Source: Escherichia phage inny. From it: a stretch of DNA of 64,000 nt. The translations under genes were made by a program, and so were the position numbers. Below, piece by piece: positions 11,172 to 14,580 of the stretch. The stretch is from the sequence record MN850601.1; one strand, written 5' to 3'. The notes beneath the pieces are model-generated. The model searched no databases and had not been told where the DNA came from. It was given only the letters and a program-made list of their open reading frames with translations. Every line of letters starts with the position of its first letter. Position 1 is the first letter of the stretch.

Positions 11172-11438
11172 ATGACAGAAAAGACTTATGGTAAAGAATT
11201 GATTGAGAAGCACGTATTGATTGATAATAAAGGTGGAGCAATCTTTATTTTTGAACCTGAATCAGTTCTTACTGAAAACGAAAATGGTAGCGTTAGCCTT
11301 AAAACAGAAAGTTTGGTAATTGACTTCCTTGCTCTTCTGGATGAAATGGGGCTTCCTCACGAAGAAGAAGCAGCTATTGCTTTGATTGCAGTTCTTCTGG
11401 AGAAACGCGAAGCTGGTGAAATGACCCAGTATGCTTAA
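11172..11438 (+). CDS. hypothetical protein (88 aa)
   Basis: ORF track; AAAGGAG SD. Confidence 0.55.
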   Translation: MTEKTYGKELIEKHVLIDNKGGAIFIFEPESVLTENENGSVSLKTESLVIDFLALLDEMGLPHEEEAAIALIAVLLEKREAGEMTQYA

Positions 11439-11445
11439 TATTCAA

Positions 11446-11521
11446 GGTTCCATAGCTCACTGACGAGAGCGCACACCTCATAAGTGTCGAGGGCAGGGAT
11501 TGTAACCCTGGGGAACCACCA
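11446..11521 (+). tRNA. tRNA-Met/Ile2-type (anticodon CAT), non-canonical T-loop
   Basis: hand-folded cloverleaf: acceptor GGTTCC/GGAACC, D-stem GCTC/GAGC, anticodon loop CTCATAA, encoded CCA; T-loop ATTGTAA (A54, T58) instead of TTCGAAT. Confidence 0.6.
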
Positions 11522-11552
11522 TTTAAAAGGAGGTGCTATGCATCTCCTATAT

Positions 11553-11638
11553 GCAAGTGTGGTGGAATTGGTGATACACATTGTGCTTAAAACGCAACGC
11601 TTAAATGATTGAGGGTTCGAATCCCTCCACTTGCACCA
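11553..11638 (+). tRNA. tRNA-Leu (anticodon TAA), type II
   Basis: acceptor GCAAGTG/CACTTGC, 3-bp D-stem, anticodon loop CTTAAAA, long variable arm, T-arm GAGGG-TTCGAAT-CCCTC, A73, CCA. Confidence 0.85.
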
Positions 11639-11640
11639 AC

Positions 11641-11746
11641 GCCTAGTAGGGTATTTGGTAATTCCGAGGCCATCAAAGCCTGAAAAATATGTTAGACCGT
11701 TTTGTCTAACTAAATACGAAATATGGTTCGATTCCATAACTAGGCT
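11641..11746 (+). tRNA. atypical 106-nt tRNA-like element (candidate anticodon TCA)
   Basis: perfect 7-bp acceptor GCCTAGT/ACTAGGC, D-like arm with GG loop, 4-bp stem with loop CATCAAA, extra 7-bp hairpin GTTAGAC-CGTTTT-GTCTAAC, canonical T-arm TATGG-TTCGATT-CCATA; no CCA encoded; too long for a standard tRNA. Confidence 0.3.
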
Positions 11747-11781
11747 CCCGATTTAAATAGTAATTTTTTAATAAAAATATC

Positions 11782-11810
11782 TTGACATTTACTTAGTTTT
11801 TTGTTATAGT
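11782..11810 (+). promoter_or_regulatory. sigma70-like promoter TTGACA-N17-TATAGT with extended TG
   Basis: -35 at 11782..11787, TG at 11802..11803, -10 at 11805..11810; 12 nt upstream of the tRNA at 11822. Confidence 0.6.
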
Positions 11811-11821
11811 CATTATGAAAA

Positions 11822-11903
11822 CGGGGTGTATCTCACCTGACTTCTAATCAGGCGTTAACCGAGTAATTGGAGTATGCAGGTTCGAATCCTGTCACCCCGG
11901 CCA
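11822..11903 (+). tRNA. tRNA-Arg-like (anticodon TCT) lacking a canonical D-arm
   Basis: acceptor CGGGGTG/CACCCCG, only 7 nt (TATCTCA) before a perfect anticodon arm CCTGA-CTTCTAA-TCAGG, 23-nt variable region with CCGA-GTAA-TTGG hairpin, T-arm GCAGG-TTCGAAT-CCTGT, G73, CCA. Confidence 0.45.
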
Positions 11904-11921
11904 AAAAGTTTTAAAAACTAC

Positions 11922-11951
11922 TTGACAAGCAAGATAGTTTTATGTTAGATT
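11922..11951 (+). promoter_or_regulatory. sigma70-like promoter TTGACA-N17/18-TTAGAT
   Basis: -35 at 11922..11927, TG then -10 around 11945..11951. Confidence 0.55.
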
Positions 11952-11966
11952 TAAAGTATGGTAACA

Positions 11967-12056
11967 GGAAGGTAGGGCGCAGCGGTGCGCAACCAGGTTT
12001 GAACCCTGGCCCATTGTAGCGATACGGTGATGGTTCGACTCCATTATCTTCCTCCA
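11967..12056 (+). tRNA. tRNA-Ser (anticodon TGA), type II
   Basis: acceptor GGAAGGT/ATCTTCC, anticodon arm CCAGG-TTTGAAC-CCTGG, 19-nt variable arm, T-arm GATGG-TTCGACT-CCATT, CCA. Confidence 0.85.
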
Positions 12057-12075
12057 AATTCGCTTAGGAGCTTTA

Positions 12076-12227
12076 TGAATTATAAAACTATTGGACAGAT
12101 TGTTACCGGAGTTAAGATTGTAAATAATAAAGTTGTTTATGAGTATTCTAATCTTCAACAATCTGAAGATGGTAAGAATATTCGTATGGTAAAAGCAGAA
12201 CAAAAAGATTCCGGTTGTTTTGAATAA
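12076..12227 (+). CDS. small hypothetical protein (50 aa)
   Basis: ORF track 12027..12227 starts inside tRNA-Ser; trimmed to ATG at 12076 behind TAGGAG SD. Confidence 0.3.
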
Positions 12228-12235
12228 TTAAGAAC

Positions 12236-12321
12236 GGTAGATTGGTGAAATGGTAGCCACAACAGTTTGCTAAACTGTCGTCGGAAACGGCGTGTAGGTT
12301 CAAGTCCTACATCTACCGCCA
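12236..12321 (+). tRNA. tRNA-Ser (anticodon GCT), type II
   Basis: acceptor GGTAGAT/ATCTACC, 3-bp D-stem GTG/CAC, anticodon arm ACAGT-TTGCTAA-ACTGT, long variable arm, T-arm GTAGG-TTCAAGT-CCTAC, G73, CCA. Confidence 0.85.
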
Positions 12322-12377
12322 AGTTATCTTTAATGTAGCTTGTTGCTCTTAGTTGCTTGGTGTAACTTTTTGGAAGG

Positions 12378-12439
12378 ATGGCTGCAACCATCTTACTTTA
12401 ATAGAGTAAACTTTCGGCAGATGGCCCCCACCATCTTAC
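12378..12439 (+). repeat. two near-identical hairpins (GGATGG-loop-CCATCTTAC), spaced about 45 nt
   Basis: 12378..12397 AAGGATGG-CTGCAA-CCATCTT and 12422..12439 AGATGG-CCCCCA-CCATCT; both followed by TTAC; stems resemble the T-stem of the upstream tRNA-Ser. Confidence 0.5.
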
Positions 12440-12491
12440 CGATACCTCATAGTTAGTGGTGCGAACACTGGCTATTTTAAAGATAATTTAT

Positions 12492-12567
12492 ACATCGTTA
12501 GCTTAGTTGGTAGAGCAAGGGGCTTTTAACTCCAAGGTCGAAGGTTCGAATCCTTCACGATGTACCA
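12492..12567 (+). tRNA. tRNA-Lys (anticodon TTT)
   Basis: perfect acceptor ACATCGT/ACGATGT, D-arm GCTT-AGTTGGTA-GAGC, anticodon loop CTTTTAA, T-arm GAAGG-TTCGAAT-CCTTC, A73, CCA. Confidence 0.8.
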
Positions 12568-12572
12568 AACAC

Positions 12573-12659
12573 GTAGGTATCGCATAGCGGCAATTGCTGG
12601 AGACTGTAAATCTCCTGCCCTTCGGGGCTTCGTTGGTTCGAGTCCAACTACCTGCACCA
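12573..12659 (+). tRNA. tRNA-Tyr (anticodon GTA), type II
   Basis: acceptor GTAGGTA/TACCTGC, anticodon arm GGAGA-CTGTAAA-TCTCC, variable hairpin GCCC-TTCG-GGGC, T-arm GTTGG-TTCGAGT-CCAAC, A73, CCA. Confidence 0.85.
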
Positions 12660-12666
12660 AATTAAA

Positions 12667-12751
12667 GATGGATTGGCCTAGTGGTTGGGCGACGGACTGT
12701 TAATCCGTGAACGAAAGTTCTAGCAAGGTTCAAATCCTTGATCCATCGCCA
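12667..12751 (+). tRNA. type II (Ser-like architecture) tRNA with anticodon GTT (Asn-type)
   Basis: acceptor GATGGAT/ATCCATC, 3-bp D-stem GCC/GGC, perfect anticodon arm ACGGA-CTGTTAA-TCCGT, 15-nt variable arm with GAAC-GAAA-GTTC hairpin, T-arm CAAGG-TTCAAAT-CCTTG, G73, CCA. Confidence 0.7.
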
Positions 12752-12830
12752 AATAGTGCTTGTAGAGTTAATAGAAACCTCTAGAATTTTCTAGAATTGT
12801 AGGTATCAAATCCTACCAAGCAAATATTTT

Positions 12831-12905
12831 GCTCCTATCGTATAACGGCTATTACGGTTGCCTTGTAAGCAACTTATCAGGGTTCGAGTCCTTGTGGGAG
12901 CACCA
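12831..12905 (+). tRNA. tRNA-Thr (anticodon TGT)
   Basis: acceptor GCTCCTA/TGGGAGC (one G-U), anticodon arm GTTGC-CTTGTAA-GCAAC, T-arm CAGGG-TTCGAGT-CCTTG, A73, CCA. Confidence 0.8.
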
Positions 12906-12927
12906 ATTTAACTCTAAAGGAGTGTAT

Positions 12928-13251
12928 GTGACAGAAAAAGAGTTAGAGAAATATTTTAATATCAATGTTTTCGATGGTTTTGATGATATTGAAGATGTTG
13001 AAAGATATTATGAAGTAGAGTTAGATAAGGATAACATTGTAATTCTTTCTGCCACTTATGATTGTGCATATTATGAAGGCGAATCTCACGTTTATTTCTA
13101 TGATATGAAAACATCTTTGTTTTATGAAGTACACGCATATCATTGTTCTTGTTATGGCTTAGAAGGTCAGTGGGAACCTGAAGAAATAGGTGATTTGAGC
13201 TTTACGGTTGCATATCTAAACAGACGTGGTGCATCTACTATTTTAAAATAA
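12928..13251 (+). CDS. hypothetical protein (107 aa)
   Basis: ORF track 12829..13251 begins inside tRNA-Thr; trimmed to GTG at 12928 behind AAGGAG SD. Confidence 0.5.
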   Translation: MTEKELEKYFNINVFDGFDDIEDVERYYEVELDKDNIVILSATYDCAYYEGESHVYFYDMKTSLFYEVHAYHCSCYGLEGQWEPEEIGDLSFTVAYLNRRGASTILK

Positions 13252-13265
13252 ATATTAAAAGCCTC

Positions 13266-13295
13266 TTGACAAAGGGGCTAATAATATGTTAGAGT
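13266..13295 (+). promoter_or_regulatory. sigma70-like promoter TTGACA-N18-TGT-TAGAGT
   Basis: -35 at 13266..13271, TG at 13287..13288, -10 at 13290..13295; upstream of tRNA-Gly. Confidence 0.55.
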
Positions 13296-13306
13296 AATAT
13301 TGTTAA

Positions 13307-13381
13307 GCGGGTATAGTGTTAATGGTAGCATATGAGGTTTCCACCCTCCAGGTGCAGGTTCAAGTCCTGTTACTCGCTCCA
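13307..13381 (+). tRNA. tRNA-Gly (anticodon TCC)
   Basis: acceptor GCGGGTA/TACTCGC, anticodon loop TTTCCAC, T-arm GCAGG-TTCAAGT-CCTGT, U73, CCA. Confidence 0.8.
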
Positions 13382-13480
13382 AGATTATTTAAATGGAATC
13401 GCTAGAGAAAATTTCTCTTTTCGCTCATGGTTTTCTCCTTCAAACTCTAGCGGTTCTTTTTAAGTGATTTTTAGTTTTAT

Positions 13481-13555
13481 TGGAGATTAGCCTAGTGGGA
13501 AGGCAACGGCCTTTGAAGTCGTGATGACTAGGTTCGATTCCTAGATCTCCAGCCA
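13481..13555 (+). tRNA. tRNA-Gln (anticodon TTG)
   Basis: acceptor TGGAGAT/ATCTCCA with U1-A72, D-arm GCC-TAGTGGGAA-GGC, anticodon arm ACGGC-CTTTGAA-GTCGT, T-arm CTAGG-TTCGATT-CCTAG, G73, CCA. Confidence 0.8.
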
Positions 13556-13562
13556 ATATTTA

Positions 13563-13638
13563 CAGTGCGTAGCGCAGTTGGTAGCGTGGGAGCCTTGGAC
13601 GCTTCAGGTCGCAGGTTCGAGTCCTGCCGCACTGACCA
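13563..13638 (+). tRNA. tRNA-Pro (anticodon TGG)
   Basis: acceptor CAGTGCG/CGCACTG, D-arm GCGC-AGTTGGTA-GCGT, anticodon arm GGAGC-CTTGGAC-GCTTC, T-arm GCAGG-TTCGAGT-CCTGC, A73, CCA. Confidence 0.85.
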
Positions 13639-13643
13639 AATTT

Positions 13644-13718
13644 GCAGAGATAGCTGAGACGGATTAGTGCTACCCTGAAAAGGTAGAAAGGATGGATCGT
13701 TACCATCTCTCTGCACCA
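13644..13718 (+). tRNA. tRNA-Phe (anticodon GAA), non-canonical T-loop
   Basis: perfect acceptor GCAGAGA/TCTCTGC, perfect anticodon arm CTACC-CTGAAAA-GGTAG, T-arm GATGG-ATCGTTA-CCATC (A54 and T58 swapped relative to consensus), A73, CCA. Confidence 0.7.
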
Positions 13719-13795
13719 GATAACACCATCCAAGGAGAATACTTGGTTAACTGTCAATAGCACATTGAGGCTTCTTACAGTGGTGTACTTATTAT

Positions 13796-13880
13796 GGCTA
13801 AGTGGTGGAATGGTATACACGATACGCTTAGAACGTATTGCCCCAAGGGATTGTGAGTTCGAGTCTCACCTTAGCTACCA
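13796..13880 (+). tRNA. tRNA-Leu (anticodon TAG), type II
   Basis: acceptor GGCTAAG/CTTAGCT, 3-bp D-stem GTG/CAC, anticodon arm ATACG-CTTAGAA-CGTAT, variable hairpin, T-arm GTGAG-TTCGAGT-CTCAC, A73, CCA. Confidence 0.85.
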
Positions 13881-13895
13881 AATTATTACAGGTTT

Positions 13896-13974
13896 CGCGG
13901 GATAGAGGAGTCTGGTCGTCCTCGCCAGTTTCATATGCTGGAGATCGTAGGTTCAAATCCTACTCCCGTTACCA
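13896..13974 (+). tRNA. tRNA-Met/Ile2-type (anticodon CAT), second copy, unpaired 1-72
   Basis: acceptor CGCGGGA/TCCCGTT with C1 opposite U72, D-arm GAGG-(11 nt)-CCTC, anticodon arm CCAGT-TTCATAT-GCTGG, T-arm GTAGG-TTCAAAT-CCTAC, A73, CCA. Confidence 0.65.
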
Positions 13975-14032
13975 ATAAATACCTCCCTTCTGGTGTAATG
14001 ATTAAATTACATTGACACTTCAAGGAACTCAT

Positions 14033-14115
14033 AGCCGGGTAGATTTAAAAGAGTATGGTACTCAATATGGCTCCAAACCATAGATCAGGGGGTTCGATTC
14101 CTCACCTTGCTGCCA
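14033..14115 (+). tRNA. tRNA-Trp-like (anticodon CCA) with expanded D region
   Basis: anticodon arm TATGG-CTCCAAA-CCATA, T-loop TTCGATT, G73, CCA; best acceptor AGCCGGG/CCTTGCT has one C-U mismatch and leaves about 9 extra nt before the D-stem GAGT/ACTC. Confidence 0.4.
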
Positions 14116-14120
14116 ATTAT

Positions 14121-14196
14121 TGTGGTATCGTACAGATGGTTAGTACACTCGACCGATAATCGAGAAACAACGGTTCGACTCCGTTTACCACGACCA
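14121..14196 (+). tRNA. tRNA-Ile (anticodon GAT)
   Basis: acceptor TGTGGTA/TACCACG, D-arm GTAC-AGATGGTTA-GTAC, anticodon arm CTCGA-CCGATAA-TCGAG (C33), T-arm AACGG-TTCGACT-CCGTT, A73, CCA. Confidence 0.75.
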
Positions 14197-14310
14197 AACT
14201 CCGTGCCAGCGGTGTCTTCGAAGAACAAGCCTAGTTCCTTCTGAGATGGAGGGGTGCGACTCCTTAACGCACAACATACTACTACTACTAAATACTTATC
14301 AGGAGATATC

Positions 14311-14580
14311 ATGTATACTTTAAAAGTAATTCGCAAGTTTCCTCAAGAAGAGGAAGTAAGAATTTATAACACTGTACCATTCGTAGTAAATGAAGAAGAA
14401 TTCTTTTATTGCTTAGAAGATGAAGTAATTATTCAATATCATTGGGAAGGTTACGACAGACAAGATGGTGTTGTAGCTTCTGTGCTTGCTGGTGACAGAG
14501 TGTTATTCATTCACAAAACTGAATCAGCATATTTAATGAATGATAAAGGACAAACTGTTAAAGTAATTAACAGACCATAA
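14311..14580 (+). CDS. hypothetical protein (89 aa)
   Basis: ORF track 14254..14580 trimmed to ATG at 14311 behind AGGAG SD. Confidence 0.5.
   Translation: MYTLKVIRKFPQEEEVRIYNTVPFVVNEEEFFYCLEDEVIIQYHWEGYDRQDGVVASVLAGDRVLFIHKTESAYLMNDKGQTVKVINRP

What the first reader, a model, noticed from the sequence alone, without database searches (positions are those of the whole stretch)
11822..11903. Promoter-proximal tRNA-Arg(UCU)-like gene that appears to lack a D-arm
Acceptor stem (7 bp), anticodon arm (perfect 5-bp stem, loop CTTCTAA with U33 and A37), T-arm and G73-CCA are all canonical, but only 7 nt separate the acceptor from the anticodon stem and a 23-nt region with a small hairpin follows it. 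D-armless tRNAs are known from mitochondria but are very unusual in phages. It may be a decoy or tRNA mimic, or a pseudogene.
Basis: seen in the sequence. Interest (0 to 1): 0.5.

Follow-up and report, generated by a model that had tools for sequence, protein, structure and literature searches.

The report
Rewired phage arginine tRNA gene
This is a conserved, almost certainly functional phage gene for an arginine tRNA (anticodon UCU) in which the usual D hairpin is replaced by a D-type stem that closes around the anticodon arm and a D-type loop placed after it, an arrangement found in many unrelated phages, usually missed by annotation, and not described in any paper I could find.

Summary
Window 11822-11903 (+) has a 7-bp acceptor stem, 7 nt, a 5-bp anticodon stem with loop CUUCUAA, 23 nt, a canonical T arm and G73-CCA, 11 nt after a strong promoter.

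The interpretation needs revising. It is not a pseudogene. Close copies occur in at least 233 sequenced phages, and about 120 distinct relatives were recovered from viral and environmental contigs. All stems covary.

It is also not truly D-armless. The 4 nt after U8-A9 (UCUC) pair with the 4 nt (GAGU) just 5' of a conserved AANUGGA motif. Two of these pairs are Watson-Crick in 113 of 113 sequences, with 3-4 pair types and 20 stem variants. RNAalifold predicts this stem unaided. AANUGGA...AU reads as A14, R15, G18, G19, A20 and Y48; one lineage changes A15-U48 to G15-C48.

Anticodons on this scaffold are UCU, CCU, ACG and UCG (all Arg), plus one UAU. Phages carrying it usually lack a canonical tRNA-Arg(UCU). 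AGA is 28% of Arg codons here.

Best reading: a working AGA decoder with an internally permuted core. Expression, charging and 3D fold are untested. Nine literature searches found no description.

The parts
11782..11810 (+). sigma-70-type promoter: TTGACA (11782-11787), 17-nt spacer, TG-extended TATAGT (11805-11810)
   Evidence: 11 of 12 matches, the best site in 11300-14400. It ends 11 nt before the tRNA 5' end.
11822..11828 (+). acceptor stem, 5' strand CGGGGTG
   Evidence: All 7 pairs covary: (98% of cells paired).
11829..11830 (+). U8 A9
   Evidence: Invariant in 71/71 and 112/112.
11831..11834 (+). first strand of the long-range D-type stem (UCUC). It continues through one nucleotide into the anticodon stem, as strand 22-25 does in a canonical tRNA.
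   Evidence: pairs with 11861-11864. The two central pairs are Watson-Crick in 113/113.
11835..11835 (+). single A between D-type stem and anticodon stem (position-26 equivalent)
   Evidence: A in 73, C in 25, G in 11, U in 4 of 113.
11836..11852 (+). anticodon arm: CCTGA / CTTCTAA / TCAGG; anticodon TCT = UCU at 11843-11845
   Evidence: All 5 pairs covary. The loop is invariant apart from Arg-to-Arg anticodon changes.
11853..11860 (+). connector CGTTAACC (3-15 nt in other subfamilies)
   Evidence: lengths are 8 nt in 67, 4 in 21, 3 in 12, 5 in 10, and up to 15.
11861..11864 (+). second strand of the D-type stem (GAGU; strand 10-13 equivalent)
11865..11871 (+). D-loop-like motif AATTGGA, read as A14 A15 U16 U17 G18 G19 A20
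   Evidence: AANUGGA-type motif in all. A follows GG in 101/102. The second A covaries with the last nucleotide before the T stem (A-U 100, G-C 1, A-C 1).
11872..11875 (+). tail GTAT; its last U is the position-48 equivalent
   Evidence: tails are 4-10 nt and end in AU in 100 of 102 distinct sequences (GUAC in L101, UCUU in the UAU member L150).
11876..11892 (+). T arm GCAGG / TTCGAAT / CCTGT
   Evidence: G53-C61 is invariant and the loop is UUCRANY.
11893..11903 (+). acceptor 3' strand CACCCCG, discriminator G73, encoded CCA
   Evidence: Discriminator in the family: G 51, A 36, U 13, C 2. CCA is encoded in 67/102.

Best explanation
The gene encodes a working tRNA-Arg(UCU) that supplies AGA (and AGG) decoding for an AT-rich phage whose host has little of that tRNA. 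Its core is rewired. Instead of a D hairpin, the four nucleotides after U8-A9 pair with four nucleotides located after the anticodon arm. This gives a 3-bp stem plus a U.U end that stacks on the anticodon stem, where the D stem normally sits. The strand leaving that stem carries a D-loop sequence (A14, A15, G18 G19, A20) and ends in the position-48 U just before the T stem.

Formally, segment 10-43 of a normal tRNA is circularly permuted at the 21/22 junction: [22-43] comes first and [10-21] second. The three re-routed links (9 to 22, 43 to 10, 20/21 to 48) join residues that are neighbours in the canonical L shape, so the molecule can keep the normal fold and its universal tertiary contacts (U8-A14, R15-Y48, G18/G19 with the T loop). 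It can also keep all bacterial ArgRS identity elements (A20, C35, U36, G73).

Shown: the sequence features, the covarying long-range stem, the A15-U48 to G15-C48 change, restriction to Arg anticodons, wide distribution, and the usual absence of a canonical tRNA-Arg(UCU) beside it.

Inferred: transcription from the adjacent promoter, processing, charging by host ArgRS, use on the ribosome, and the 3D equivalence.
For: (1) Real and conserved. Rfam tRNA scores 38.6 bits. Homologues of 82-100% identity over the full length occur in Justusliebigvirus, Felixounavirus, Asteriusvirus, Mydovirus, Vequintavirinae and the Klebsiella phage Roth37, which has a T5-like genome size and gene content (its record gives no taxonomy below 'Viruses'); 233 records cover at least 80% of the query. 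Relatives occur in Streptomyces and Microbacterium phages.

(2) Acceptor, anticodon and T stems covary: 97% of cells paired against 73.5% in shuffles, 0 of 500 shuffles reach it.

(3) Long-range D-type stem. The set was selected only on acceptor, anticodon and T pairing. Pairs 11-24 and 12-23 are Watson-Crick in 113/113, with 4 and 3 pair types. Pair 10-25 is Watson-Crick in 99/113. There are 20 distinct stem variants. Sliding the register by 1-4 nt gives 15-35% paired against 96.5%; 0 of 2000 shuffles reach it. The pair-counting tool confirms this. RNAalifold, run on an unguided MAFFT alignment of 42 full-length sequences, predicts the same stem.

(4) D-loop reading. AANUGGA is followed by 4-10 nt that end in AU in 100 of 102 distinct sequences. 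R15:Y48 letters are A-U 100 and G-C 1 (L101, a double change in otherwise invariant columns).

(5) Arginine link. An anticodon-blind scan of 2.33 Mb of held phage DNA found UCU 141, CCU 5, ACG 2, UCG 1 and UAU 1. A follows GG in 101/102. The only exception is the UAU member, which has U-U after GG and A73, matching the bacterial Ile identity set (identity sets from PMC9976931).

(6) Need. AGA is 28% of Arg codons (11.1 per 1000) in the window's ORFs, and no other tRNA-Arg lies in the window. Roth37 has 25 tRNAs and no other UCU tRNA. A canonical tRNA-Arg(UCU) co-occurs in only 3 of 37 loci with at least 15 tRNAs.

(7) Kinship. The canonical tRNA-Arg(UCU) of a T5-like phage shares an identical acceptor 5' strand, an identical T arm, and G73-CCA.
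Against: There is no expression, processing or charging data. The G18/G19/A20 assignment rests on invariant letters, one covarying tertiary pair and one identity-switched member; no 3D model was made. The first position of the stem is mismatched in 12 of 113. Collection scans fixed the anticodon loop, AANTGGA and the T loop, so family breadth beyond those motifs and the share of non-Arg members are not fairly sampled. Microbacterium phage Zooman carries a permuted tRNA-Arg(ACG) next to a canonical tRNA-Arg(ACG), so simple replacement is not the whole story.
Confidence: 0.68

Rival explanations
1. A tRNA-Arg mimic or decoy that is made and folds as described but is not used in translation. It might instead soak up or misdirect a host enzyme that targets tRNA-Arg (an anticodon nuclease of the colicin D type, a defence effector, or a modification enzyme), or regulate something through ArgRS.
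For: The anticodon loop is held invariant, as a bait would require. The scaffold is tied to all Arg isoacceptors rather than to one codon. Zooman has a canonical and a permuted tRNA-Arg(ACG) side by side. Five loci hold a canonical and a permuted UCU tRNA together.
Against: Everything translation needs is kept: the 7/5 acceptor-T branch, the canonical T loop, U33, A37 and CCA. The usual absence of any other AGA decoder, despite heavy AGA use, fits a decoder better. The UAU member changes its identity letters together with its anticodon, which points to real charging.
Confidence: 0.15
2. One reading: a truly D-armless tRNA with a class-II-like variable hairpin (CCGA-GUAA-UUGG), comparable to mitochondrial tRNA-Ser(AGY).
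For: It is the minimum-free-energy fold. In the main subfamily the hairpin pairs are kept in 57/63 sequences, with C-G to U-G changes.
Against: The hairpin register is kept in only 1/50 sequences of the other subfamilies, and 24/50 cannot form any 3-bp hairpin with UGG. Its 'covariation' is one-sided Y/G variation. The competing long-range stem has true compensatory changes and is what RNAalifold predicts.
Confidence: 0.07
3. In the main subfamily both folds exist, and the RNA switches between a hairpin form that hides G18/G19 and the tRNA-like form.
For: Both pairings are possible and conserved in the main subfamily, whose 8-nt connector CRUUAAYC is far more conserved than a mere linker needs to be.
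Against: No evidence of a trigger or partner. The other subfamilies manage with connectors of 3-5 nt.
Confidence: 0.07
4. A decaying tRNA-Arg gene that lost its D arm by deletion.
For: ARAGORN fails on it and the Rfam score is lower than for its neighbours.
Against: The same architecture is conserved across unrelated phage families and environments, with compensatory changes in every stem. No relative has a normal gene at this position.
Confidence: 0.02

Closest known systems
Canonical phage-encoded tRNA-Arg(UCU), e.g. of T5-like phages (L192 257-331; T4 also has one, from general knowledge)
   Same: Same anticodon loop CUUCUAA, an identical acceptor 5' strand and T arm, G73-CCA, a position inside a phage tRNA cluster, and the presumed role of reading AGA, which is rare in the host.
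   Different: The T5-type gene has an ordinary D hairpin (GUCU-AAGGGAU-AGGC) before the anticodon arm and a 5-nt variable loop. Here the D stem encloses the anticodon arm and the D loop follows it.
D-armless mitochondrial tRNA-Ser(GCU/UCU) of animals
   Same: No D hairpin between acceptor and anticodon stem, a short 5' connector (5-12 nt in mitochondria, 7 nt here), and a UCU/GCU-type anticodon (PMC4394434).
   Different: The mitochondrial forms have lost the conserved D/T-loop contacts and have atypical T loops and a simplified core. This family keeps a canonical T loop, a GG-containing D-loop motif, U8, and a covarying 15-48 pair and D-type stem. It works, presumably, with a bacterial cytoplasmic translation system and means arginine, not serine.
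Class II tRNAs (Leu, Ser, Tyr, Sec) with a long variable arm
   Same: A long stretch (18-36 nt) between anticodon and T arms, which Rfam treats as a variable-region insertion.
   Different: In class II tRNAs that stretch is a self-contained hairpin added to a normal D arm. Here it supplies one strand of the D stem and the D loop, and no hairpin is conserved.
Circularly permuted tRNA genes of the red alga Cyanidioschyzon merolae (general knowledge; term search)
   Same: The order of tRNA segments in the gene differs from the canonical order.
   Different: There the whole gene is permuted and processing restores a normal mature tRNA. Here the ends are normal, only the inner segment 10-43 is permuted, and nothing suggests that it is rearranged after transcription.
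allo-tRNAs and other non-canonical cloverleaves (8/4, 9/3) found in bacteria and phages (PMC5389517)
   Same: Natural tRNAs with altered architecture, found by mining metagenomes and partly phage-borne.
   Different: Those alter the acceptor/T branch lengths and keep a D hairpin. This family keeps the 7/5 branch and rewires the D domain.

Membership tests
tRNA (Rfam RF00005) | Score at or above the curated gathering score of the covariance model | tested here: met
   38.6 bits against 29.
tRNA (Rfam RF00005) | Four-arm cloverleaf with a D hairpin between acceptor and anticodon stems | tested here: not met
   The model's D arm is deleted in the alignment (15 positions against 4 nt). ARAGORN gives no call.
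tRNA (functional sense) | 7-bp acceptor stem, 5-bp T stem with UUCRANY loop, 5-bp anticodon stem with a 7-nt loop, U33 and a purine at 37, discriminator plus CCA | tested here: met
tRNA (functional sense) | Made, processed, aminoacylated and used on ribosomes | not testable with these tools
   No expression or biochemical data are available here.
Bacterial tRNA-Arg (ArgRS identity set: A20, C35, U/G36, A/G73; PMC9976931) | C35 and U36 or G36 | tested here: met
   UCU in the window. The family has UCU, CCU, ACG and UCG in 149 of 150 hits.
Bacterial tRNA-Arg (ArgRS identity set) | A or G at 73 | tested here: met
   G at 11900. Family: G 51, A 36, U 13, C 2.
Bacterial tRNA-Arg (ArgRS identity set) | A20 in the D loop | tested here: inconclusive
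   An A follows GG in 101/102 sequences, and it is U in the single Ile-anticodon member. That this A sits where A20 sits is inferred, not shown.
D-armless tRNA of the mitochondrial type | No D stem; D/T-loop contacts lost | tested here: not met
   A covarying long-range D-type stem, with a GG motif and canonical T loop retained.
Class II tRNA | Conserved variable-arm hairpin in addition to a D arm | tested here: not met
   The hairpin is kept in 57/63 of the main subfamily but in 1/50 of the others. There is no separate D hairpin.
tRNA pseudogene | No selective constraint; relatives carry an intact gene at the same place | tested here: not met

The most novel reading that the evidence does not exclude
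Phages of many lineages use a natural tRNA whose core is internally circularly permuted yet folds into the normal L shape and is charged by host ArgRS. On this reading the rewiring was selected because it makes the phage's arginine tRNA invisible or resistant to something that recognises the normal D-arm connectivity of tRNA-Arg. That could be a host tRNA-targeting defence or toxin, or the phage's own attack on host tRNAs.
Probability: 0.2. Interest if true: 0.92.

Novelty: new variant of a known kind. Interest (0 to 1): 0.8.

Why it matters
First, annotation. This gene is unannotated or mislabelled in most records: 'none', 'hypothetical protein', 'tRNA-OTHER', 'tRNA-Undet', and even 'tRNA-Val(aac)' in Streptomyces phage Yaboi. 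Among the records listed for at least 233 sequenced phages, several leave it unannotated or mislabelled. Those phages include Felix O1-like, phi92-like and rV5-like phages, jumbo phages and Klebsiella phage Roth37. Where the gene is unannotated, the phage's tRNA complement and codon-usage match are miscounted.

Second, tRNA biology. If the RNA is charged and used, then bacterial ArgRS, EF-Tu, RNase P, the CCA enzyme and the ribosome accept a tRNA with a re-routed backbone. That would be a natural test of which features of tRNA are three-dimensional and which depend on connectivity. It would also offer a ready-made scaffold for engineering orthogonal tRNAs.

Third, phage-host conflict. The scaffold is tied to arginine and recurs in distant phages. 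This suggests a specific selective pressure on tRNA-Arg that could now be looked for.

Tried and rejected
(1) A helix U8-A9-Y10 with G51-U52-A53. The letters are invariant except for U-to-C at position 10, so it is uninformative. The long-range stem supersedes it.

(2) An extended pairing UAUCUC/GAGUAUG next to the acceptor. It is contradicted by L067 and by the register of the covarying stem.

(3) The variable-arm hairpin as a family feature. Rejected.

(4) Promoter proximity as a family trait. Only 15 of 122 members have a promoter-like site within 3-15 nt, against 38 of 808 canonical tRNAs in the same loci, and six of the 15 hits have the window's own promoter hexamers at the same 11-nt distance. 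It is a feature of this phage group, not of the family.

(5) Bacterial chromosomes. One scan of 185,579 species genomes found the main-family motif only on two contigs of metagenome-assembled genomes, so the family appears phage-borne.

(6) Cultured relatives of the UCGG/CCGU subfamily. BLAST found none.

(7) Literature. Nine full-text searches found no description of a phage tRNA with this architecture. The library lacks most subscription journals, so prior description cannot be ruled out.

(8) Other Rfam families. Nothing else scores over the element even at E up to 10.

(9) A first metagenome pattern was too loose: roughly half of its 120 loci were chance matches and were filtered out.

Full report
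**What is there.**
Window 11822-11903 (+) reads CGGGGTG TATCTCA CCTGA CTTCTAA TCAGG CGTTAACCGAGTAATTGGAGTAT GCAGG TTCGAAT CCTGT CACCCCG G CCA.

Rfam's tRNA model scores 38.6 bits (gathering score 29) by deleting the D arm and inserting 20 nt in the variable region. ARAGORN finds 15 other tRNAs in 11446-14196 but not this one. A strong sigma-70-type promoter (TTGACA, 17 nt, TG-n-TATAGT; 11 of 12 matches) ends 11 nt upstream.

**Where the window comes from.**
The region is 96-100% identical to E. coli phages of the genus Justusliebigvirus (phi92-like, Stephanstirmvirinae). In those records the element is unannotated, overlapped by 'hypothetical protein', or labelled 'tRNA-Undet' or 'tRNA-OTHER'.

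**It is not a pseudogene.**
- The 96-nt query finds full-length homologues (82-86% identity) in unrelated phages: Felixounavirus (AYO145A, wV8), the jumbo Asteriusvirus PBECO4, Proteus phage Mydo, Vequintavirinae UPEC06 and Klebsiella phage Roth37. In all, 233 records cover at least 80% of the query.
- In a 7-way alignment the stems differ by compensatory changes, while the 7-nt 'linker' and most of the 23-nt region are invariant.
- Pattern scans of IMG/VR and of metagenome contigs gave 71 distinct sequences of this main type.
- On these, 97% of cells in the acceptor, anticodon, hairpin and T helices pair, against 73.5% in shuffles. All pairs of the acceptor and anticodon stems change on both sides.
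- A scan of one genome for each of 185,579 bacterial and archaeal species found the motif only on two contigs of metagenome-assembled genomes. The family therefore appears phage-borne.

**The D arm is rewired, not absent.**
A covariance model of the main type picked up weaker relatives in the held loci. One was a second UCU copy in L057 with a different linker and variable region. Another, in L048, had anticodon ACG. All shared UAAUUGGA.

I kept sequences using acceptor, anticodon and T pairing alone, which left 113 distinct sequences in many subfamilies. In these:
- The 4 nt after U8-A9 pair with the 4 nt immediately 5' of AANUGGA.
- The two central pairs are Watson-Crick in 113/113, with 4 and 3 pair types.
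- The pair next to the anticodon stem is Watson-Crick in 99/113.
- The far pair is nearly always U.U or U.C.
- There are 20 different stem variants.
- Sliding the register by 1-4 nt gives 15-35% pairing against 96.5%, and 0 of 2000 shuffles reach the observed value.

The pair-counting tool gives the same result on a fixed-length concatenation of the structured segments. Nine of those 112 rows had been chosen with the stem as a criterion; searches are free of that bias. RNAalifold, given 42 full-length sequences and no structure, predicts acceptor, this long-range stem enclosing the anticodon arm, and the T arm.

For the window sequence, nearest-neighbour energy still prefers the hairpin (-26.3 against -21.4 kcal/mol). 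The long-range stem must therefore be helped by tertiary contacts, or the two folds alternate in this subfamily.

**Reading the single strand after the stem.**
It is AANUGGA followed by 4-10 nt that end in AU in 100 of 102 distinct sequences. This matches A14, R15, N16, Y17, G18, G19, A20 of a normal D loop, with the last U as position 48.
- The letters at 15 and 48 are A-U in 100 sequences. They are G-C in the one lineage (L101) where either changes, a double change in otherwise invariant columns. They are A-C once.
- U8 and the first A are invariant.
- The strand after U8-A9 runs through one nucleotide into the anticodon stem, as 22-25-26-27 does in a normal tRNA.
- The other strand runs into the D-loop motif, as 10-13-14 does.

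So the inner segment 10-43 is circularly permuted at the 21/22 junction. The three new links (9 to 22; 43 to 10 through a 3-15-nt connector; 20/21 to 48) join residues that I know to be neighbours in the canonical L shape. This 3D equivalence is my inference and was not modelled.

**Link to arginine.**
UCU is over-represented by the way the loci were collected, but 8 of the 9 other hits are still arginine.
- The base after GG is A in 101/102 distinct sequences. In bacteria A20 is the main ArgRS determinant, together with C35, U/G36 and A/G73 (PMC9976931).
- The single UAU member has U-U after GG and A73. These belong to the bacterial isoleucine identity set in the same table. This is one case only.
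- Further members are a UCG copy in Streptomyces phage TunaTartare (unannotated) and a UCU copy in Streptomyces phage Yaboi, annotated as tRNA-Val(aac), apparently because the connector was read as the anticodon loop.
- Microbacterium phage Zooman has an ACG copy lying between canonical tRNA-Arg(acg) and tRNA-Arg(ccg) genes.

**Why a working decoder is the best reading.**
- AGA makes up 28% of arginine codons (11.1 per 1000 codons) in the window's long ORFs. From general knowledge this codon is rare in E. coli.
- The window has no other tRNA-Arg.
- Roth37 has 25 ARAGORN-called tRNAs, including Arg(ACG), but its only UCU tRNA is this element.
- Among 37 loci with at least 15 tRNAs, only 3 also have a canonical tRNA-Arg(UCU).
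- The canonical tRNA-Arg(UCU) of a T5-like phage has an identical acceptor 5' strand, an identical T arm, and G73-CCA. The two forms are therefore related and probably interchangeable.
- A decoy role cannot be excluded, and the Zooman case shows that simple replacement is not the whole story.

**Comparison with known things.**
- Animal mitochondrial tRNA-Ser(AGY) also lacks the D hairpin, but it has lost the D/T-loop contacts and has an atypical T loop (PMC4394434).
- Class II tRNAs have a self-contained variable hairpin in addition to a D arm.
- The permuted tRNA genes of Cyanidioschyzon (general knowledge) yield normal mature tRNAs.
- allo-tRNAs change the acceptor/T branch (PMC5389517).

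None of these has a D stem enclosing the anticodon arm with the D loop after it. Nine literature searches found no description of this arrangement, but the library is incomplete.

**Verdict.**
It is wrong on 'pseudogene' and on the D domain being absent. I rate it a new variant of a known kind, of high interest, pending proof of expression, charging and fold.

Noticed in passing
window 11641-11749 (+): A 109-nt tRNA-like gene directly upstream. It has a 7-bp acceptor stem, a D arm, an anticodon-like loop CAUCAAA (UCA with A instead of U33), a 7-bp extra arm and a T arm with UUCGAUU, and it ends in UCCC rather than CCA. It scores 29.4 bits on the tRNA-Sec model (gathering score 47) and is not called by ARAGORN. 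One record (phage cardinal) annotates a hypothetical protein here.
   Followed up: partly
window 11446-11521 (+): ARAGORN calls a tRNA-Met(CAU), but its T loop is AUUGUAA instead of UUCRANY, and Rfam gives no hit even at E up to 1.
   Followed up: partly
window 12667-12751 (+): A tRNA-Asn(GUU) of 85 nt with a 4-bp long variable arm. That is a class-II-like feature, which is unusual for asparagine. It scores 56.5 bits on the Rfam tRNA model.
   Followed up: partly
window 14038-14117 (+): A weak tRNA-like sequence with anticodon-like loop CUCCAAA (CCA), a 5-bp acceptor and an odd D region. It scores 22.4 bits on tRNA-Sec and 21.9 bits on my family model. Its fold is no better than shuffles (z = -0.6).
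   Followed up: partly
L150 3368-3450 (+), metagenome contig: The only non-arginine member of the rewired architecture. It has anticodon UAU (Ile, AUA), D-loop motif AAUGGU followed by U, and A73, which match bacterial isoleucine identity elements.
   Followed up: partly
L306 145-223 (Streptomyces phage Yaboi NC_048730 86686-86764): A member of the family with anticodon UCU is annotated in GenBank as tRNA-Val(aac). The connector CGUUAAC seems to have been read as the anticodon loop.
   Followed up: yes
L307 about 143-219 (Microbacterium phage Zooman OK040793): A rewired tRNA-Arg(ACG) lies unannotated between a canonical tRNA-Arg(acg) and a canonical tRNA-Arg(ccg). Canonical and rewired forms with the same anticodon therefore coexist in one phage.
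   Followed up: partly
window 11922-11951 and 13266-13295 (+): Two more TTGACA-18 nt-TAGATT/TAGAGT promoter-like sites with an upstream TG sit directly before tRNA-Ser(UGA) and tRNA-Gly(UCC). The cluster therefore seems to be transcribed from several internal promoters.
   Followed up: no
L001 4465-4824 and L005 1591-2100: HNH endonuclease genes are inserted within the tRNA clusters of related phages. In Roth37 one lies immediately downstream of the rewired tRNA-Arg.
   Followed up: no
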